From Eledone cirrhosa (lineage: Eukaryota), in assembly GCA_964016885.1 (NCBI GenBank), contig OZ024740.1, positions 178,374,001-178,438,000 of the forward strand: a stretch of 64,000 bases of DNA, in the 5' to 3' direction. Made by a program: the position numbers and the translations under genes. Shown here piece after piece: positions 2,640-55,859 of the stretch; positions within the stretch are counted from its first letter, which is position 1, and each line of letters starts with the position of its first letter. Under the pieces are notes generated by a model that worked only from the letters and a program-made list of their open reading frames with translations, ran no database searches and was not told the origin of the DNA.

Positions 2640-3957
2640 GCCGGTGTAGCTACTGCGACTGTTGGTGTTGCCGCCACTGCTGCCGATGCTTTAGTTGTCC
2701 GTGGTCTTGGTAAGAGTGCCACAGACTTTGCCCTCCTACTAACTATTGAAGGATCTTCTGCCTCTGTTGCCTGCCCTGCTTTTGGTAGCAGCAGATCAGG
2801 CGTCGGAAAGAGGGGGTCCCTCTTCTTGGCTGCCTTCTGCGGGCAGAAGGCCTTGAGGTGACCCTTCTGCCCACAGAGATGGCACTTTGGCGCCTTCCTT
2901 CCACGCTTATAGGGAGTTGGAGTCCTTCTTCGAGGTCTATGATGTCTGGGATGGCTTCGATGCACTCCTGGTCAGTCTGTATTAGCATTTGCATGCCTAT
3001 TCCTGACTAGTTCTCTCTTCACATTCTCTGTATTTTCAGTATGGTGGTCGTCTCCTCGATTCCAGCCAGTAAAAACGCGGCCAGCCTAGGTATAGGCACG
3101 TCGGGGGGGGGGGGGGGGGGGGAGGACCTGGGTCACTTTGACCCTCACAATTTTCTGCCCGCAGTAGGAGGGCACCAAGACTATCTCCTAACTCTTTAGG
3201 TGTTGGCGAAAATCACGTCTACTGTGGCGTACTTTTTGCCTCGGGTGATGTGGGTTTTGCGCGCCCAGACGCACCCCAAGGTTGAGATTTGAGTCTCCGT
3301 GGCTCTCTCTACCCGATATGACATTTTGCTTACGGTGCGATAAGTCACCATGCGCAGTTGCTGGTACTTGAAAAAATCGGGTGGAGGTTTCAGGGAAACT
3401 CTATTGTCGTTTCTTGACAGCACGGCTCTTGCGACTGCCATCTCCTCCTCCGTGACTAGCACTGTCTCTATATTTCGGGCCACACCAGCGAAAGAAGTGG
3501 CCCCTTTTTCAGCGGCACCATTATTTCTGCCGCTACTGCTGCTACTGGTCTTGTTGTTAGTGCTGTTGCTGTTGCTACTGTTACAAACGGTGTTGTTGGT
3601 GTTGTTGCTGTCATCACTGTTGTAGTTGGTTGTGTTTTTGCTGCCACAGTTGTTGTTTTCGGTGCAATTAGTATTGTTGCTGTTGGTGTTGTCATTGTTT
3701 ATTTTCTTGTTAGTGGTGTTAATATCGTCGTTGCATTTGTTGTCATATTTTTTCTGTTGTCTGTATTTTGGTTGACACTGTTATTGTTGTAGTCAGTGTG
3801 GTAATTTATTTTAAAATTAGTGTTTTCGGTGTTGTTGGCTTTGTTAACGTTGTTTGTGGTGGTGTTTGTTGTATGAATTTCACTAACCCTCCTCTCAACT
3901 TTTACGCCGTTGTCACACGACACTAGACATATTGTTAGGGGGCGTGGCTCAGCCATG
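2640..3957 (-). pseudogene. Tx1/L1 ORF1 (gag-like, zinc knuckle), frameshifted
   Basis: ATG at about 3957 after an A-run (MAEPRPL...), Thr/Asn-rich low-complexity segment, then the CCHC knuckle in the 2333..2965 ORF. Broken by stops and a long G tract near 3102-3122. Confidence 0.7.
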
Positions 3958-4737: not shown

Positions 4738-5692
4738 ATTCAAAGAACGCCTACATACTCATACAATTTCTATTCGCTAACAATGTTTCATCCATACCGT
4801 GGGGCAGGAATCATCAGAGCGTTATAAACAAAGATATAGTGCTGAATATAAGCTCTACCAAGCTTAGTCACCAGAACAGTATAGATACAGTACAGGATAG
4901 TAAGAGGGAGATTGGAAATGAGAAGGATGGAGAGAATGCGTAATGGGTTTGTTAGTCAACATTATAGCAAAACATGAGAATACAAGAATACAGGCAGATT
5001 TTCTCACAAGAGACTGAGGCATGTGAAGGCACACAAAAGCAACAAAGGAGGGTATGCATTGGTTACTAACATATATATATATATAGATACATATATCGAC
5101 TCGCTGCAACATAACCCCTCAATGTATATTTGGTGCAAAAATACCAAAAATCAAGCTCACTCATAAACGACAAAGTTATGGTTTTAATATTATTAATTTC
5201 GTGAAAATAAAAAGCATAGAAGCTAACAGAACGGTAAACACATTACATTACATTAGTGACATACATCATCATAATAAGTAATATATATAATTATATAATT
5301 ACACATGCCGGTCTTAATATTATTCGTATATATATGAAATTTGGATACAAACAAAACCTGCAGAATATGGGTGCTCCAGTTCGATCGTGGAATTTTACTC
5401 ATGTATTGCGTGTACATTATGCAACTTATCTGAGGTTCCTATCGATTATATAGATTGCAATCAACCAGAGATGGTCTAGTTTATTTAAAACCCTTCTGTA
5501 TTTATCGTTGTTGTGATATATGTAGAACCAATGCTTACGGTCGGTTATCCTGGTGTCACACTTTCTAACAGTTGTGTTTAATCTGGATCTTAATGTTTTT
5601 GTAACTTTTCGCAACATAGAGTGCTTTGTGATTGCTTCAAACATATAGAATAGTACTTGCTGTGCGACAGAAAAACTTCGCTTCTTACCTAA
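4732..5692 (-). mobile_element. Decayed 3' portion of a Neptune-like PLE (GIY-YIG remnant plus pLTR), between (TA)n tracts
   Basis: Minus strand reads across frameshifts as FCRTAST..Y...LYV.K..KTLRSRLN, resembling a GIY-YIG start. Hammerhead motif at 4775-4821. (TA)n on both sides. Confidence 0.5.
4775..4821 (-). ncRNA. Minimal type I hammerhead ribozyme motif
   Basis: Minus strand: CGCT-CTGATGA-(TTCCTGCC ccac GGTATGGAT)-GAAA-CATTG-TT-AGCG. Stem I CGCT/AGCG, intact core, GUU cleavage triplet. Confidence 0.75.
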
Positions 5693-5740
5693 TATATATA
5701 TATATATATATATATTAGGTAAGAAGCGAAGTTTTTCTGT
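5667..5740. repeat. Perfect inverted repeat: 26-bp arms around a (TA)n centre
   Basis: ACAGAAAAACTTCGCTTCTTACCTAA (5667-5692), then (TA)n, then TTAGGTAAGAAGCGAAGTTTTTCTGT (5715-5740). Confidence 0.95.
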
Positions 5741-5891
5741 ACTTTTGGAACTACAACTGGAACCGTCGAGCAAACTCTACGTGAGCTGTCAATCTACTGT
5801 GTGTAATATTTATATTACAACACAACGGAAAATACTGTATATTTACCTCCTGTAAAGTCGAGCAACCCACACAGCAAACGCAACCACAACA

Positions 5892-8213
5892 ATGGAAAAA
5901 CACTACCTGGATATGTCACTCAAAAACATACCAACCCAAGGTAGAAAGGAATATTTATTGAGTATGATTCAAAAAACTAATGAATTCATTCGACGTGTCA
6001 GGTGGAAAACGCTCCACTATGATAGAAGCCGTATGAACTCAACATTAGAAAGTGGTGTAAACAACAAATTCGGTTTTAGGACTTGTAAAAACCCACCCAC
6101 CAACCCACTATTAGATGCATTTGAGCAGGACCTTATGAACTTAATCCTTAAAATTAAATTCAAAGGACGCAGCACCAACAGCAAATTACAGAAAGATATA
6201 AAAAAACTACTGGACGACCTTAAAAACACCAAAGGAATTGTAGTAAAAGCGGACAAAACATCAAACCTGTACACTATGGATTGCACTACATACAACAACT
6301 TCATTCGAAAAGAATTACATAAAAAATATAGAAAAACGAATGAAGTAACTCTTAAGCACATCAATGATGAGGCATGCGAAATAGTGAAAAATCTCGGAAT
6401 CGAAGATAGGACAGGACCACTCTTACCGGCGGTACCCACCTTCAATCTTAAGGACCATAAGGTAAACTTTGATAATGACCCTAAAATTAGATTAATCTGC
6501 CCCTCTAAATCAGATATAGGTAAAATAAGCAAATATATCTTAGATAGAATCATCCCCCAAATTAAGGCTAAGGTTAACATTAAACTCTGGGGAAAGACCC
6601 AAGAAGCAATAAGATGGTTTAATAGCATTAGCAATAAGAATAAATCTAAGTTTATCCAGTTTGATATCGATGAATATTACTCATCGATATCTCCTGAAAC
6701 TTTGAATAGAGCCATTAAGTTTGCTAAGGATAACTCTGACCTTACAAACGATGAAATTAAGATTATATTAGAAGCTAGGAAAACTATAGTCAAATTTGAG
6801 AACAGTTATTGGGTACGTAAAGATAGACCCTCTAACTTTGACATAACAATGGGCTCTAACGATTCGGCGGAAATAACTGATATTGTGGGGTTATTTATCG
6901 CCTTTAGACTCCAGGAAAAATTCAGCAATCTCCACGGCGGAATATACTGCGACGATGTTCTCCTCCTAGTTAAAATCCTAAATAACCAAAAACTAGAAAA
7001 ACTACGCAAAGATATAAGAAAACTACTACTCGAAATAGGACTAACTATAACATATGAATACAACCTTAAAGTAGTTAACTTCCTGGATGTCACACTCAAT
7101 TTAAACTCTGGTTTTATTAAACCGTTTCATAAATTGAATGAAAATCTCAAATACGTAAATGTTGGGTCTAACCACCCCATCTCTATAATTAAATCTATCC
7201 CTAAAAATATTTCCCTTAGAATCTCGGGTCTATCTTCTAACATACAAGTATTTAAGGAACACGCCGAGTACTACGATAACGCCCTTAGTAAAGCAGGCTA
7301 CCTCAACAAAATAGAGTATATAGATGGGAACAATCAAAACACCCAAAATAAATCCCACATAGGTAGATATAATAACACAACACCAAACCACACTTACTAC
7401 CATAGTATGCACACCAGTAAACCAACAAACAAAACTAATAGAAAGCGATGCAAAGAGTACTTATGGTATAACCCCGAATACAATAGTTCCATTAGTACAA
7501 ATTTACCAGTACTCTTCTTTAAAATAATTAAGAGACATTTTCCTACATCACACACATACCACAAAATCCTAAACCCTACCACTATAAGACTGTCATACTC
7601 TACAGTGTTAAACCTTGAACAACACATAAAAAAGATCAATACTAGAAGGTTAAACGAAAACACTAAGAACTTAAGTACAAAGAACACAAAAACAACAGTA
7701 TACAATACACTACAGAACATAAATAAACCACACCTAAGTTCGTCCGCAATACTACTCCAGAGAAAACCCAACGTACACAACTGTAACTGCACCTATCCTG
7801 ACAACTGCCCCCTCGGCAATAACTGCCTGGAATAAAATATTATTTATAAGTGTACCATTAAATCCGGAGGCAACGAGTGGTATTACGTGGGATCAACGGT
7901 AACATCGTTTAAATCTCGATTATATAGGCATTCTTACTCAATAAAACACCAGAGCCAAAGAAATGTAACAACTTTAGCAGAAAAAGCTTGGACGCTCTGG
8001 GATAGCGATCAAAAGTTTACCCTAAAATGGGAGAAATTAGCTAAAACCCAAAGCTTTTCCAGGAGCCAAAATTTCTGCAAATTGTGTAATCTTGAGATTT
8101 ATTACATAATCACACACAAGAAGAAATTGCTGAATAACAGAATTGAACGAACATTATTCTGCCGTCACAGAACTAAAACACTTTTTTCCCACTACAAGCC
8201 GAATATTACATAA
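5892..8213 (+). pseudogene. PLE polyprotein (RT + GIY-YIG endonuclease) with one in-frame stop
   Basis: KADKT, KDHK, FIQFDIDEYYSSI, FDITMGS, GGIYCDD (GxYRDD in sister copies), FLDVTL, WYNP, CNC..CPL..C, YVGST..FK.R..H, CKLC. ORFs 5892..7835 and 7887..8213 are in the same frame, separated by a single TAA. Confidence 0.92.
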
Positions 8214-8481
8214 AAGAGGGACATCCCCCCAACTATATAAACCTCAATCTAGTTAGAAAAATATAAAAACAATCTCTTCTCAACATATATTAATAACCTT
8301 AAATTACCACACTAATAATGGAAAGATATGCTGACGAGAATAGGTGCAAATATGCGATAATGAATGTGTCTAAAAACGTCCATAAGTATGTATATATATG
8401 TGAAAATGTATATAAATAAGTAAATATATATATGTGTTTGATGTGTATAGTTAGATGTAAGTGTATTCATGTATTAAAGTG

Positions 8482-8567
<86 letters not shown>

Positions 8568-9112
8568 GATAGATGTGTATGTATATGTATATGTGTACAC
8601 ATAGACTAGAGTATGTTAGTATATATGTGTGTTTCTATACGTGTGTATATAAAGATAAGTTGAGTATGAAAATGTATACACATGAACGCGTATGTATGTA
8701 CATGAATACATGTGTGTATATATATATGTATGCATGTGTATATGTATATAAGTATGAATATGTGAATGTGAGTATATGTATTTTGTAGAGGTGTGCAAAT
8801 ATATTTGTGTATGAATGCGTGGGTGAAAGGATACGTACACTTGAAAGAAAAATTTAAGTCTGAATGTTAATTAAGTACAAACACAAAACCAACCACGCAT
8901 ATCTTTACTATCTCTAATCCTTCTATAAATTTAGAAAAATAACCAATAATATATTCTATAAAAATGTCAAAACAACAGATGGGAATCTAATTACTCACTG
9001 CCACCAAAAATTCTCACTGCTATCAAAAAACCACTCCCTCAACTATTCTTCTAATAACTTCACCCCTCCCTCCTAATATTCTCTATAAAAACCAAATAGG
9101 TCCTCAGTAATA

Positions 9113-9233
9113 TTATTCTGATGAAATGACAGTAAATAATAACATTGAAATATTGAATGTCTGCATAACTAAAACTTTGTAGATAGCAACTGTTTTCAGG
9201 TTATGTAACTGTTATAGAAACACGTGTCAATAA
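9113..9233 (+). ncRNA. Type I hammerhead ribozyme with expanded stem II
   Basis: TTATT-CTGATGA-A-ATGACAGT...(74 nt)...ACTGTTAT-A-GAAA-CACGTG-TC-AATAA. Stem I TTATT/AATAA, palindromic stem III, GUC site. Confidence 0.85.
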
Positions 9234-9380
9234 ATTCCTTTAAACTAAACTGTATCCATTCAAATCTTTCTATTTTTCTCCGGATTACTTTTGGAACTAC
9301 AACTGGAACCGTCGAGCAAATTCTACGTGAGCTGTCAATCTACTGTGTGTAATATTTATATTACAACACAACGGAAAATA

Positions 9381-9469
<89 letters not shown>

Positions 9470-9620
9470 TTAATTAAGCAAAACAAGACCACAAATTTCA
9501 CAAGGAAGACATTATTAAAAGATTGTCAACATATTTTAGTTTGATGTAAGGAATGTAGAGAATAATAATGATAATATTAATAATAATAATGTCCGTTTAC
9601 AATTGTTTCGCTACTCCATA

Positions 9621-9790
9621 TAATTGTTTCTACATTTGGCACAAGGCCAGCAATTACTCCAGTGTATTACTGGTACTTTATTTTATCGACCCCGTAAGGA
9701 TGAAAGGCAAAGTTAACCTCGGCGGGATTTGAACTCAGTCCGTAAAGGGACGTAACTGCATATAATATTGAACTCAGTCCGTAAAGGGAC
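9621..9790 (-). mobile_element. 5'-truncated SINE with target-site duplication, inserted in the PLE hammerhead
   Basis: SINE body flanked by GCTACTCCATATAAT at about 9610 and 9791, with a small internal duplication at the 5' junction. Confidence 0.85.
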
Positions 9791-9899
9791 GCTACTCCAT
9801 ATAATATTTCTGGATCAGATGACTATATATCATAATTGATCTGGTTCAGTTGAAAATAATTAACATATTTAAAAAACAGAGCGGCATATAAATTAAAAT

Positions 9900-10087
9900 A
9901 ATTGTTTCTACTTTAGGCACAAGGCCAGCCAATACCCAGTGCATTACTGGTACTTTATTTTATCGACCCCGTAAGGATGAAAGGCAAAGTCAACCTCGGC
10001 GGGATTTGAACTCAGATCGTAAAGGGACGTTACTATGCTGGAAAGCATGGCGTCCGACCCTCTACCGATACTGCCAATCCACCGCCC
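9900..10087 (-). mobile_element. Full-length SINE (subfamily A) with ~17-bp TSD
   Basis: ATATAAATTAAAATAAT on both sides. Near-identical to the 4170 copy. Confidence 0.92.
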
Positions 10088-13000
10088 AATATAAATTAAA
10101 ATAATGAGAGAATGTTACATAATATAACGTTCCATATATTGGTTTTTCACTATGGTGTCTTGGTTGCATCAGTTGTCAGCCATAATCAAGCAGTATTCAT
10201 CTGTCGAGGCTGCATTGTGTGAGATCTGCCTATGGGTAACAAGATGGCTGCCAAAGGACATATTTACCTTCCTAATTAGAGAGTGGTTTCAGGGGAAGTA
10301 ACTCCTCGAGAGATTAGAAATTGTGGGTAGTTTATAGTTAAGTGCTAATTATAAATTTTTTTAATTGAGAGACAATGTAGGGGAGGTAACTTATAATTAT
10401 CTAAGTTAGTCATAGCTATTTAACTTATTAGCTACAAGTAAAAATGGGGCTAGATGACTAAGATGGGTCAAATATTCTATTGGCGAAGGAATTAGCCCTT
10501 CGATGTTGACAGCTTACCTCCGTTCTATCGTTAATCGGTAGAGGTCGTGATAGAGTTATGTAATATGCTTCTGTAATACAGAGATCACAAGATTTTTTCG
10601 TCCATTGAACGGTTGGGCCCTAGCCACGATATCCCATTTTAGTGAGTGTTGAACGTTGTTTAATTTAATGGGTCTCCGAAGGAAAAAGAGTGCGCGTTAT
10701 AGCGTACCTTAAAAAGGGTTAGAGGTAGACCCGATATAAGAGCTGGTATTCGAAGCAGTTTTAACCGTGCACCTATAGACTATGTTGGGTGTCAAGCAGT
10801 GTCCATTTAATGGGCATGCATTAGGGTAACGGCAGTTGCAGTTGCTTCTGCGGTTAGTGAGAGTAAGGTAGTTTAACCTAAGCGGTAGGTCAGTGCTAGA
10901 AGGATTAGATGGTGGAGCTGTGCTACTAGAGTAATTATTGGTGTAGTGGCGTGGTGTATTTGATAGAGGTGGTGGTACCGCGGTGTGGGAGTTTTACTGT
11001 TTTAGTTTTTGATGGTTACTGAATGCGATGTGGCTAGCTAGATTAGGTGTTGTGGAGAATGAGATTTTAATGTTATTTTAAAGAGTTTGTAATATCTATG
11101 GTTGGAGGAAAGTTTTAGATAGGATAGAGAAGAAGCGTTTAGGGATATTAGTGGCTAGATTAGATGAGAATGGGGGGGGGGGTTAAGCCAGGTGATATTT
11201 CTAGGTCTATTCCTTCTATGGGTTCTAGTGGAGTTGGTAGGGGCCTTCCTAGGGTTATTATTACCTGAGGATTTGTTATTTGTCATCCCATTTCTCATTC
11301 CTATTCTAGGGTTGATTTTTAGTTTGCTACTTGGAGTGGGGAGCAGGCCGCTGCCACCATTAAACTTCCCTGTATAGGTGCTGTTACTGCTAAAATTCCG
11401 GCGAATCTGGCTATATTCTAAGGTATTTCTAGTTCTAGTGTTAAGTTTATTATGGTGAATTGCTGTGTTATGGCATTTAGGTATGTAATAAATTGATTGT
11501 TCATAACCAGATTCAGAAAGAGCCTTATTATAATATTGTGCATGGTTTATAAATATCTCCTCATTTGCTGATAGCATTGAGATCCTATACGAGATAGAGT
11601 TGATTACTGTTCTGATGACTGCCGGTGAGTGGTTAGAGTGTGGGCTAATATATGTGAGTATTTCACCTGGTTTATGATAAGGGTAATATAGGTTATTGTT
11701 GAGATCCAGGGTGACGTCTAGGAAGTTTACTACTTTATGGTTCGGCTCGATGGTGATAGAGAGACCGTTATTTTTAAAGAATCTATGTAATTGTTTTTTT
11801 AGCAAATCAATGCCCCGATTAGTGCAATTGTGGACTGCAAGTAGGGCGTCGTCCCTGTATATTCCGCCTTGCAAGGGTTGGATTTCGGCTCTGATGTTAT
11901 GTAATAGGTAAATTCCAACTAAATCGGTGATTTGCGCATAGTCACTTGAGCCCATCGTGATGTCAGAGTTGTCTGTCCTATCTTTTCTAGTCCAGAGTGC
12001 TCCGTTGAATTCAATGATAGTCTGCCTAGCCATAAGTATGATGTTAATCTCATTATTGGTTATGTCCGAGTTGGTGTTGGCTAGGGTTAATGCTTTGTTG
12101 AGCAGTTCCGGGGTTATTGACGCGTAATAGCTGTCGATGTCAAATTGGATGAACCTCATAGATTGCTTGGACCTTAGAGCGGAGAACAATCTAATGACTT
12201 GGCCGGTGTTGGACCATAACTTGTAGGTGATATCATCCCGTAGCCCAGGGATTATCCTATCAAGGATGTTCTTACTGATACGGCTCAGGTCGGATGTGGT
12301 TGGGCTTATAAGTCTAATAAATGGGTTCTCTATAAAGTTTGGCTTATGATCCTTGAGAGAGAAATCTTGCGGTTGTTGGTACATAAGGGTGGGTAAATAT
12401 ATCCAGATGCAAGTCCTTAACCAAAGCCTGGGCTTTTCGGTTAAGTATGTTTACACTGGAGGGTATAGTTTTTTATAGTTTTTATTAAGTTCTTTAAGAA
12501 GGAAAGAGTTGTAAGTTTCAGGAGTCATGGTGTATAGATTTTTAGTTTTGTCAGACATATCATATAAGAGGTGGCTATCTTTAAATTTTTGTTATAGCTG
12601 TTGCTAATTTAGTGAGGAAATTATTCTTGTGTCTATAATGCTTTTTGAATGTAATGCTCCTGATGAAGTTGAATATATCTTTCTCAAAAGGGTCCAGCAG
12701 CATGTTGTGTGGGGGTTTCTTGCAGGTGATAAATCCATATCTATTTGCTGTACTTCCCGCGTCAGCAGCAACCGCACGGTCAAAGTGGAACGCTTTCCAT
12801 CTTATTCTTCGGATGAAAGAGTTGACACTCTGTATTAGGAGTTTGAGGTATGTCTTCCTGTCCGGGATAGGTGTGGACTTAAGTGAGATTCTGAGTTCCT
12901 GCTTCCTCAACAAGGTGACTTCTAACAGTAAATAGCTCAACTACAGGAGCTCAAGTATACACAGTTCAAGAGTAACCAATCTTAAAGAGAGAGATGGAGA

Positions 13001-13652
13001 TAGGAGAGGAGATATGAGAGGAGAGATTGGTGAATTAGTTAGAAGCCAAAGCGTAAAGGCATGTGCTGAATGTGGAATATGCAGTAGAAAGCAGGTAGGT
13101 GGCTGGGTTCATGCAGAAGTTAGGTAGGAAGAGCTGGGAATATTCATTAGTTAAGCAAAACAAGACCACAAATTTCACAAGTAAGACATTATTAAAAGAT
13201 TGTCAACATATTTTAGTTTGATGTAAGGAATGTAGGGAATAATAATAATAATATTAATAATAATAATAATATTAATATTTATAATAAATTTTACTTGTAG
13301 CTAATAAGTTAAATAGCTATGACTAACTTAGATAATTATAAGGTACCTCCCCTACATTGTCTCTCAATTAAAAATTTTAAAAATTAGCACTTAACTATAA
13401 ACTACCCACAATTTCTAATCTCTCGAGGAGTTACTTCCCCTGAAACCACCCTCTAATTAATTAGGTAAATATGTCCTTTGGCAGCCATCTTGTTACCCAT
13501 AGGCAGATCTCACACAATGCAGCCTCGACAGGTGAATACTACTTGATTATGGCTGACAACTGATGCAACCAAGACGCCATAGTGAAAAACCAATATATGG
13601 AACGTTATATTATGTAACATTCTCTCATTATTTTAATTTATATTCCTTTGAA

Positions 13653-13772
13653 GTTCCGAGGAGCCGCTCTGTTTTTTAAATATGTTAATTATTTTCAACT
13701 GAACCAGATCAATTATGATATATAGTCATCTGATCCAGAAATATCATATGGAGTAGCGAAACAATTGTAAAC
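13653..13772 (+). ncRNA. Hammerhead ribozyme motif (CCGAGGA core variant, expanded stem II)
   Basis: GTT-CCGAGGA-GCCGCTCT...GGAGTAGC-GAAA-CAATTG-TA-AAC. Stem I is short (3 bp). Confidence 0.65.
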
Positions 13773-16000
13773 GGACATTATTATTATTAATATTATTATT
13801 ATTATTCTCTACATTCCTTACATCAAACTAGTTGTGGTCCAACACCGGCCAAGTCATTAGATGGTTCTCCGAATTAAGGTCCAAGCAATCTATGAGGTTC
13901 ATCCAATTTGACATCGACAGCTATTACGCGTCAATAACCCCGGAACTGCTCAACAAAGCATTAACACTAGCCAGCACCAACTCGGACATAACCAATAATG
14001 AGATTAACATCATACTTATGGCTAGACAGACTATCATTGAATCCGACGGAGCATTCTGGACTAGAAAAGAGAGAACAGACAACTTTGACATCACGATGGG
14101 CTCAAGTGACTATGCGCAAATCACCGATTTAGTTGGAATTTACCTATTACATAACATCAGAGCCGAAATCCAATCCTTGCAAGGCGGAATATACAGGGAC
14201 GACGCCCTATTTGCAGTCCACAATTGCACTAATCGGGGCATTGATTCGCTAAAAAACAATTACATAGATTCTTTAAAAATAACGGTCTCACTATCACCAT
14301 CGAGCTGAATCATAAAGTAGTAAACTCCCTAGACGTCACCCTGGAACTCAACAATAACCTATATTACCCTTACCATAAATCAGGTGAAATACTCACATAT
14401 ATTAGCCCACACTCTAACCACCCACCGGCAGTCATCAGAACAGTAATCAAATCTATCTCGTATAGGATATCAATGCTATCAGCAAATGAGGAGATATTTA
14501 TAAACCATGCACGATATTATAATAAGGCTCTTTCTGAATCTGGTTATGAACAATCAATTTATTACATACCTAAATGCCATAACACAGCAATTCACCATAA
14601 TAAACTTAACACTAGAACTAGAAATACCTTAGAATATAGCCAGATTCGCCGGAATTTTAGCAGTAACAGCACCTATACAGGGAAGTTTAATGGTGGCAGC
14701 GGGCTGCTCCCCACTCCAAGTAGAAAACTAAAAATCAACCCTAGAATAGGAATGAGAAATGGGATGACAAATAACAAATCCCCAGGTAATAATAACCCTA
14801 GGAAGGCCCCTACCAACTACACTAGAACCCCTAGAAGGAATAGAGCTAGAAGTATCACCTGGCTTAATCCCCTATTCTCATCTAATCTAGCCACTAATAT
14901 CCCTAAACGATTCTTCTCTATCCTATCTAAACATTCCCCCCCAAACATAGGTATTACAAACTTTAAAAAAAAATAACATTAAAATCTCATTCTCCGCAAC
15001 GCCTAACCTAGCTAGCCACATCGCATTCAGTAACCATCATAAAAGAAGACAGTATAACTCCCACACCGCGGTACCACCACCCCTATCAAATATACCACGC
15101 CACTACACCAATAATTACTCTAGTAGCTACACCTCCCCCATCAAATCCTTCTAGCACTGACCTACCGCTTAGGTTAAACTACTTTACTCTCACTAACCGC
15201 AGAAGCAACTGCAACTGCCGTTACCCTAATGCATGCCCATTAAATGGACACTGCTTGACACCCAACATAGTCTATAGGTGCACGGTTAAAACTGCTTCGA
15301 ATACCAGCTCTTATATCGGGTCTACCTCTAACCCTTTTTAAGGTACGCTATAACGCGCACTCTTTTTCCTTCCGAGACCCTAGCAACAGATGTTCGACAT
15401 CGCTAGCTAGACTCATTAAAAACCTTAAATTAAGCAACGTTCAACACTCACTATGATGGGATATCGTGGCTAGGGCCCAACCGTTCAATGGACGAAAAAA
15501 TCTTGTAGTCTTTGTCTTACAGAAGCATATTACATAACTCTATCACGACCTCTACCGATTAACGATAGAACGGAGGTAACTATTAGCTGTCAACAGCTAA
15601 TTCCTTCGCCAATAGAATATTTGACCCATCTTAGTCATCTAGCCCCATTTTTACTTGTAGCTAATAAGTTAAATAGCTATGACTAACTTAGATAATTATA
15701 AGTTACCTCCCCTACATTGTCTCTCAATTAAAAAAATTTAATTTAGCACTTAACTATAAACTACATACAATTTCTAATCTCTCGAGGAGTTACTTCCCCT
15801 GAAACCACTCTCTAATTAGGAAGGTAAATATGTCCTTTGGCAGCCATCTTGTTACCCATAGGCAGATCTCACACAATGCAGCCTCGACAGATGATTACTG
15901 CTTGATTATGACTGACAACTGATGCAACCAAGACGCCATAGTGAAAAACCAATATATGGAACATTATATTATGTAACATTCTCTCATTATTTTAATTTAT

Positions 16001-16158
16001 CGGACGCCATGCTTTGACGCATAGAGTTACGGCCCTTGCCATTCTGAGTTCAAATCCCGCCTTGGTTAACTTTGCCTTTCATCCTTACTGGGTCTATAAA
16101 ATAAAGTACCAGTAATACACTTGGCAATCGCTGGCCTTGTGCCAAAAGTAGAAACAAT
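16001..16158 (+). mobile_element. 5'-truncated SINE (subfamily B) with TSD
   Basis: Diagnostic CTTTGACGCATAGAGTTACGGCCCTTGCCATT shared with the 40758 copy. Flanked by ATTATTTTAATTTAT. Confidence 0.88.
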
Positions 16159-16182
16159 TATTTTAATTTATATTCCTTTGAA

Positions 16183-16302
16183 GTTCCGATGAGCCGCTCT
16201 GTTTTTTAAATATTTTAATTATTTTCAACTGAACCAGATCAATTATGATATATAGTCATCTGATCCAGAAATATTATATGGAGTAGCGAAACAATTGTAA
16301 AC
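16183..16302 (+). ncRNA. Hammerhead ribozyme motif (CCGATGA core variant, expanded stem II)
   Basis: GTT-CCGATGA-GCCGCTCT...(79 nt)...GGAGTAGC-GAAA-CAATTG-TA-AAC. Palindromic stem III, GUA site. Confidence 0.7.
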
Positions 16303-16613
16303 GGACATTATTATTATTAATATTATTATTATTATTATTCTCTACATTCCTTACATCAAACTAAAATATGTTGACAATCTTTTAATAATGTCTTCCTTGT
16401 GAAATTTGTGGTCTTGTTTTGCTTAACTAATGAATATTTCCAGCTTTATGCACCTACCTTCTGCATGAACCCAGCCACCTAGCTGCTTTCTACTGCATAT
16501 TGCACATTCAGCACATGCCTTTACACTTTGGCTTCTAACTAATTCACCAATCTCTCCTCTCATATCTCCTCTCCTATCTCCATCGCTCTCTTTAAGATTG
16601 GTTACTCTTGAAC

Positions 16614-16677
<64 letters not shown>

Positions 16678-55465: not shown

Positions 55466-55546
55466 GAATAGAATGAAACGAAATTTCATTTCTCACTCTT
55501 AGTACGGCACTTATTTAGATGTAAGTATGTGTGTATATGTACATAT

Positions 55547-55616
55547 ATATATGTATACAGATGTACAGTAGTATGTATATATATATACATACTACTGTAC
55601 GTCTGTATACATATAT
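55547..55616. repeat. Near-perfect 70-bp palindrome centred on (TA)n
   Basis: ATATATGTATACAGATGTACAGTAGTATGTATAT then ATATATACATACTACTGTACGTCTGTATACATATAT. One mismatch. Confidence 0.85.
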
Positions 55617-55859
55617 GTATGTAGGTATACATACATTAATACTTATATATATATATATATATATATATATGTAGATAAATCTACCAAAAGTTTACGGTAG
55701 TGTCCGATCCGTATAAAGAACTCAATGTAATCCGGATATCATGAAAAGAGAAGATGCATTCAAAAACTACTTTCGGTGAAAAATAAACGGAAAACAGAGT
55801 CAAGATAAATTAATAAAATAATGAATAAACAAAGAAACAATTCCTTATATTAAAAAAAA

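What the first reader, a model, noticed from the sequence alone, without database searches (positions are those of the whole stretch)
5667..5842. PLE 5' junction carries an inverted copy of the flanking DNA across the (TA)n target
Seen: the 26 bp left of the (TA)n tract, which belong to an older neighbouring fragment, reappear perfectly inverted on the right, immediately before the first base of the PLE terminal repeat. Inference: the nicked, self-complementary (TA)n end folded back and was extended on its own strand before being joined to the element cDNA. That is a snap-back step during integration that duplicates host DNA in inverted rather than direct orientation, a direct mechanistic footprint of insertion into TA cruciform-forming sites.
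Basis: partly seen in the sequence, partly recalled or inferred. Interest (0 to 1): 0.75.

Follow-up and report, generated by a model that had tools for sequence, protein, structure and literature searches.

The report
Host fold-back scar at Penelope junction
A 26-base mirror copy of the neighbouring host DNA sits exactly at the front end of a young Penelope-like jumping gene, and it was likely made when the cut TA-repeat end folded back on itself during insertion, a rare by-product already described for human L1 elements.

Summary
Observation confirmed: 5667-5692 is the exact reverse complement of 5715-5740 around (TA)11. The arm occurs only twice in the genome and carries the private mutations of this copy of an old repeat, so the duplication arose here, after that copy decayed. 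The downstream element is a young (TA)n-targeting Penelope-like element with Hydra-clade motifs and about 1,000 or more copies; 5741 is this copy's 5' end, not a fixed repeat boundary. In 178 other copies, about 129 end instead in an inverted element arm primed at a fixed second site (the known PLE tail). Of 27 simple 5' ends, one has a clear 51-bp host fold-back and one a weaker 12-bp one. Fold-back of the cut host end, then end-joining to the cDNA, is the likeliest mechanism (about 0.65); nothing here requires a cruciform. The same scar and mechanism are published for L1 (Nam 2023; PMC11702581 Fig. S9C), and this scan noted it before at a Penelope junction in another genome. Reads and the empty allele could not be tested. 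A clean example of a known, rare outcome.

The parts
5330..5692 (+). Old, decayed copy of a repeat family (B) whose natural end is followed by (TA)n; its tail is the target tract
   Evidence: other copies are 70-82% identical, align from about 5330, and end at the same place in (TA)n
5667..5692 (+). Left arm: last 26 bp of the old B copy, with private mutations
5693..5714 (.). (TA)11, centre of the palindrome
5715..5740 (-). Right arm: perfect inverted copy of 5667-5692; T5740 overlaps the element by 1 nt
5740..5845 (+). 5' end of the young Penelope-like copy (family A); partial pseudo-LTR, direct repeat of 9286-9391
5892..8213 (+). ORF of family A: RT-like part to 7832, an in-frame stop at 7833-7835 found in 1 of 74 copies read (this one), then a GIY-YIG-like part; motifs RWK, DKT, CxCx5C, CxxC, CxH
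   Evidence: motifs compared with PMC8557442 section 11; no Pfam hit
9273..9273 (+). Fixed second priming site of family A, 110 nt inside the 3' end; inverted arms of most other copies start here directly on (TA)n. Not used in this copy
9286..9391 (+). Downstream direct repeat and 3' end of the element, running into (TA)n
9384..9466 (.). (TA)41 tract shared by the 3' end of A and the end of a second Penelope-like insertion (C)

Best explanation
The palindrome is a 26-bp inverted copy of the host flank lying between the (TA)n target and the 5' end of a young Penelope-like element, and it was likely made by fold-back of the cut host end during that insertion. Shown: geometry, privacy of the arm, a younger age than the flank's decay, and recurrence at another simple 5' end. 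Inferred steps: (1) the element's endonuclease cut both strands in the (TA)n tail of the old repeat; (2) the bottom-strand end primed reverse transcription from the element's 3' site, and the cDNA stopped at 5741; (3) the top-strand (TA)n 3' end, which in most copies primes a second cDNA at the fixed site 9273, did not engage the RNA, paired with itself and was extended 26 nt on its own strand; (4) the extension was unwound and joined to the cDNA end with a 1-nt overlap, then filled in. The polymerase is likely a host end-joining enzyme of the Pol theta type, or the RT; this was not tested.
For: Arm unique genome-wide and carrying this B copy's private changes; 0 of 28 other B copies have the palindrome. 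L105 has the same build: a 51-bp perfect inverted flank centred on (TA)14, ending 13 nt from a truncated A 5' end, arm unique genome-wide. L119 has a 12-bp version. Among 1,302 (TA)n tracts with complex flanks in 1.33 Mb held, 16 had inverted flanks; of the 5 with no mismatch, 3 end at A simple 5' ends. Flank-templated fillers also occur at inner junctions, in direct orientation (L112 from the 5' flank, L218 from the 3' flank), as expected if 3' ends copy exposed single strands during end-joining. Literature: L1 inverted duplication by fold-back of the reciprocal end (PMC11702581 Fig. S9C legend); 4 L1 cases at 0.3-0.4% (PMC10191854 section 11); snap-back SD-MMEJ with TA/AT primer repeats at the break (PMC5728401 passages).
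Against: Rare: 1 firm and 1 weak case in 27 unselected simple 5' ends, and 0 of 8 further ends seen. The L119 arm is the common end of a repeat family and may be a tail-to-tail stub (L151 shows one). Enrichment over background is post hoc: Fisher p 0.005-0.019 with L119 and 0.096 without (run with 26 ends and 4 or 9 background cases, whereas one search lists 12 background hits). One private TA-centred 20-bp fold-back lies about 130 nt beyond an A 3' end with no cDNA next to it (L269), so such scars can form without a 5' junction. The junction was not seen in any reads or contigs. Timing relative to the insertion is inferred.
Confidence: 0.65

Rival explanations
1. The cDNA 3' end, not the host end, made the copy: it invaded the flank 26 bp upstream, copied the bottom strand toward the nick, and its new (TA)n end annealed to the top-strand (TA)n. 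The product is identical in sequence.
For: This is how R2/PRINT snap-back junctions onto nearby rDNA are interpreted (PMC11371274 and PMC11331408 passages). It also centres the palindrome on (TA)n.
Against: Only 1 nt of overlap to prime an invasion here, and none evident at L105. Resection of the bottom strand would remove the template. The two flank-derived fillers at inner junctions are in direct orientation.
Confidence: 0.15
2. The fold-back is a repair scar of a separate break, or a replication template switch in the (TA)n tract, before or after the insertion; the element only happens to abut it.
For: A private TA-centred fold-back exists away from a 5' junction (L269 3' flank). This tract was hit repeatedly (B tail, A, C).
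Against: The right arm ends exactly at the element's first base with no (TA)n between them, although the family inserts in (TA)n; the same holds within 13 nt at L105. An earlier scar would need insertion exactly at the arm's end; a later one would need to stop exactly at the junction.
Confidence: 0.1
3. The cut (TA)n end was sealed into a hairpin and reopened off-centre, giving a palindromic overhang without fold-back synthesis (P-nucleotide-like; a cruciform could feed this).
For: It predicts a perfect palindrome centred on (TA)n, as seen. Hairpin cleavage is invoked for L1-side inversions (PMC11702581 Fig. S9A legend).
Against: Arms of 26-51 bp are far longer than typical P-nucleotides (recalled). 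L105 ends in a slipped-looking filler, which suggests synthesis.
Confidence: 0.07
4. Assembly or read artefact at a TA repeat.
For: No read or contig laid covered 5715-5739.
Against: Those runs are short-read contigs that break at repeats, or reduced-representation reads of other individuals. The arm is short and passes cleanly into the element, and an independent locus shows the same build.
Confidence: 0.03

Closest known systems
L1 foldback inversion / inverted duplication upstream of the target site (Nam et al. 2023, PMC10191854, section 11 read; PMC11702581, passages and supplementary Fig. S9 legend read)
   Same: Short inverted duplicate of upstream host DNA joined to the element 5' end; explained by fold-back of the non-primed host end, extension and ligation to the cDNA end; a rare outcome beside frequent twin-primed inversions.
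   Different: Here the element is a Penelope-like element and the fold-back point is the (TA)n target itself, so there is no unique spacer. Arms are 12-51 bp against about 52-220 bp. Germline rather than somatic or cell-line. Rate 1-2 of 178 copies against 4 events at 0.3-0.4%; not distinguishable at these counts.
Snap-back synthesis-dependent MMEJ (PMC5728401, passages read)
   Same: A 3' end anneals on an inverted primer repeat in its own strand, is briefly extended, unwinds and joins the other end; TA/AT primer repeats at the break are among the commonest.
   Different: Shown at I-SceI breaks in Drosophila without a retroelement; here the partner end is a cDNA and the overlap is only 1 nt; polymerase untested.
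R2/PRINT snap-back 5' junctions (PMC11371274, PMC11331408; passages read)
   Same: Reverse-complemented nearby target DNA at the 5' junction of a TPRT insertion.
   Different: Interpreted there as primed by the cDNA 3' end, mostly on the cDNA itself; unique rDNA target.
Hydra clade of C-terminal EN+ Penelope-like elements (PMC8557442, section 11 and passages read) and PLE two-site initiation (PMC11167929, parts 1-2 of 4 read)
   Same: RWK, DKT and CxCx5C motifs, no CCHH, (TA)n targets, partial tandem and inverted 5'-truncated copies, two fixed initiation sites that define a tail.
   Different: Tail here is 110 nt rather than 30-40; the unit is 3.5 kb rather than under 3 kb; neither text, in the parts read, describes inverted host flanks.

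Membership tests
L1-type foldback inversion at the target site | Inverted duplicate derives from upstream host DNA, not from the element | tested here: met
L1-type foldback inversion at the target site | Duplicate directly adjoins the element 5' end | tested here: met
   1-nt overlap at 5740; 13-nt filler at L105
L1-type foldback inversion at the target site | Self-complementary sequence at the fold-back point | tested here: met
   (TA)11; predicted hairpin of the top-strand end -3.4 kcal/mol
L1-type foldback inversion at the target site | Absent from the pre-insertion allele | tested here: inconclusive
   no run covered the junction; absent from 28 of 28 other B copies
Snap-back SD-MMEJ / TMEJ | New microhomology with the other end after synthesis | tested here: inconclusive
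   1 nt only, which chance gives often
Snap-back SD-MMEJ / TMEJ | Dependence on Pol theta | not testable with these tools
   needs mutants
Hydra-clade PLE | RWK motif, DKT motif, CxCx5C linker, CxxC and CxH in the EN | tested here: met
   residues 37, 121, 631, 729, 757 against PMC8557442 section 11
Hydra-clade PLE | Insertion into (TA)n | tested here: met
   996 exact 3' ends on (TA)n
Hydra-clade PLE | Canonical hammerhead ribozyme in the pseudo-LTR | tested here: inconclusive
   a core-like motif is visible near 9118, but Rfam gave no hammerhead match at E up to 1
Hydra-clade PLE | Phylogenetic placement of the RT | not tested
   no tree built; Pfam and PDB sequence searches gave no meaningful hit
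Cruciform-directed insertion | Cleavage depends on an extruded cruciform | not testable with these tools
   sequence cannot separate it from a self-pairing single-stranded end

The most novel reading that the evidence does not exclude
In (TA)n-targeting Penelope-like elements the second cut end has two competing fates: priming on the RNA at a fixed site (about three quarters of copies) or priming on itself. Self-priming is then common at simple 5' ends but mostly hidden, because it copies only microsatellite, and it is a main source of mirrored compound (TA)n arrays. Mirror switches between CA- and TG-type interruptions were seen in 3 of 7 informative arrays at simple 5' ends, against 4 of 29 at primed outer ends and 2 of 57 at 3' ends (p about 0.02, post hoc).
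Probability: 0.2. Interest if true: 0.55.

Novelty: new member of a known kind. Interest (0 to 1): 0.3.

Why it matters
It shows that the free host end in a Penelope-like insertion can fold back and be extended before it is joined, as in L1, so PLE 5' junctions are likely finished by ordinary end-joining when second priming fails. With about 1,000 or more young copies and two sharply fixed priming sites, this family is a good natural data set for PLE integration, whose later steps are still unvalidated (PMC11167929). The scar itself has no evident function.

Tried and rejected
1) The left neighbour as a 5'-truncated minus-strand PLE with its own inversion: rejected, because other copies end at the same place in (TA)n and none has the palindrome. 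2) Read support: the first laying skipped 5682-5725 as repeat; the second found no record over 5713-5739 in 2 contig sets and 2 RAD-seq read sets; holes in such data prove nothing. 3) L150 position 3189 as a cDNA-free fold-back: rejected, its arm occurs at two other loci. 4) A first mismatch-tolerant palindrome scan was swamped by microsatellites and was replaced. 5) miRNA-precursor matches to the hairpin are all below gathering scores and reflect any perfect hairpin. 6) Pfam and PDB searches did not identify the ORF; the protein atlas was unavailable. 7) A search with a Pfam family recalled as a Pol theta/HELQ domain gave two weak matches and settles nothing. 8) Literature searches: Penelope-like plus inverted duplication; none of the 20 listed of 89 appeared, by title and abstract start, to describe this for PLEs; 0 papers. 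The library lacks most subscription papers.

Full report
Observation. Window 5667-5692 is the exact reverse complement of 5715-5740, with (TA)11 between them, giving a perfect 74-bp palindrome. Chance is excluded: 2 matches in the window against 0 in 100 shuffles, and only these 2 in the 3.0-Gb genome with up to 1 mismatch. The element sequence begins at 5740/5741 with a 1-nt overlap.

The left neighbour. A search with 5300-5692 returned copies 70-82% identical. In the 28 other distinct copies aligned, the repeat ends at or near the same place in (TA)n and none carries an inverted arm; the window's right arm reproduces this copy's private changes. The duplication therefore arose at this locus after the old copy had decayed.

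The element. Family A spans 5741-9391 with a 105-bp direct repeat and an ORF bearing RWK, DKT, CxCx5C, CxxC and CxH motifs, which match the Hydra clade as described in PMC8557442 section 11. No tree was built, and Pfam gave no hit. The closest copies are about 99% identical over the ORF. There are 996 exact 3' ends on (TA)n. Position 5741 is not a fixed start: 28 of the 30 best copies continue upstream. A pattern for ends within a few bases of it found 10 places, this one included.

Junction census. I took the first 100 listed 3' ends on contig C1 (one dropped because it lies inside another's stretch) and 80 new places from the first 100 rows of a second pattern (duplicates, already sampled places and two near neighbours dropped), giving 178 copies besides the window's. 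In 129 of 178 an inverted element arm starts at one fixed site (window 9273) directly on (TA)n (uncertain by about 5 because of sequence variants and one likely false call). The exact signature occurs 1,315 times genome-wide. This fits the two-site initiation and tail of PLEs (PMC11167929). By hand, 27 copies have a simple sense 5' end joined to non-element DNA, 21 of them at (TA)n. Left out were 9 ending in the element's own microsatellite, 3 without an anchor, 2 unresolved tandems, 1 at an assembly gap and 2 with very short inverted arms.

Recurrence. Of the 27, L105 carries a 51-bp perfect inverted copy of its flank centred on (TA)14, then 13 filler bases, then the element; its arm is unique in the genome. 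L119 carries a 12-bp copy, but that arm is the usual end of another repeat family and could be a stub. None of 8 further simple ends showed one. Among 1,302 (TA)n tracts with complex flanks, 16 had inverted flanks; of the 5 without a mismatch, 3 end at A simple 5' ends, 1 is mostly microsatellite and 1 lies about 130 nt past an A 3' end and is private. The enrichment is modest and post hoc (p 0.005-0.019 with L119, 0.096 without). At inner junctions 24 of 133 had fillers of 6 nt or more, mostly copied from the element, and two were direct copies of the host flanks.

Mechanism. The likeliest path is that the top-strand (TA)n end failed to prime on the RNA, paired with itself, was extended 26 nt, unwound and joined the cDNA end. 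The geometry, privacy and recurrence are shown; the order of steps and the polymerase are inferred. Copying of the flank by the cDNA end, or opening of a sealed hairpin, gives the same sequence. I rank them lower because the overlap is 1 nt and the arms are long. An unrelated break in the tract is possible, since one scar lies away from a 5' junction, but it does not explain why the arm stops at the element's first base. Nothing points to a cruciform. Reads did not cover the junction, and the empty site cannot be rebuilt in the window because a second insertion shares the downstream tract.

Comparison. Nam et al. 2023 report short foldback inversions upstream of L1 target sites in 3 insertions, plus 1 combined with twin priming (section 11). 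PMC11702581 Fig. S9C gives the same mechanism, fold-back of the reciprocal end with displacement and ligation to the RT end (legend text; the figure itself was not seen). Snap-back SD-MMEJ and R2 snap-back junctions are related; I saw passages of these papers only. My searches found no paper describing it for PLEs, within a library that lacks most subscription journals. This scan noted the same build before at a PLE in another genome (unchecked), and those notes led me to the two L1 papers' relevant passages.

Verdict. A real, recent, probably insertion-linked host fold-back; a rare outcome (1-2 of 178 unselected copies) of a known kind. Interest 0.3.

Noticed in passing
window 9273 and 9383; family A genome-wide: Two fixed priming sites 110 nt apart; about three quarters of copies have both ends on (TA)n with an inverted arm starting at 9273. 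The tail is longer than the 30-40 bp usually cited.
   Followed up: partly
window 9463-16618: A second Penelope-like insertion (C) with inverted arms shares the (TA)41 tract with A; its two ends lie about 180 nt apart on its own sequence, suggesting the same two-site build. B, A and C all use one TA tail.
   Followed up: partly
L112 and L218 inner junctions: Fillers of about 100 nt that are direct copies of the 5' and 3' host flank, placed between the two arms of the element.
   Followed up: partly
L177 4072-4125: 104-bp fold-back centred on the element's own internal (TA)27 and then joined to host DNA; a TA fold-back of element DNA rather than flank.
   Followed up: no
L196, L234, L269 5' arrays: Compound (TA)n arrays at simple 5' ends switch between CA- and TG-type interruptions, as a fold-back inside the microsatellite would give.
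   Followed up: partly
L269 4641-4692: Private perfect 20-bp inverted repeat around (TA)5, bounded by another TA tract, about 130 nt past an A 3' end.
   Followed up: partly
window 7833-7835: In-frame stop between the RT and endonuclease parts, seen only in this copy among 74 read.
   Followed up: yes
family A unit positions about 3600-3620 (window about 9340-9360): Sense arms often start here (14 of 133 inner junctions), perhaps an RNA start.
   Followed up: no
window 9100-9200: Hammerhead-core-like motif near 9118 that Rfam did not detect.
   Followed up: no
window 55540-55620: Imperfect TA-centred palindrome that recurs in other loci (L014, L020) and is a repeat family, not a private scar.
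   Followed up: no
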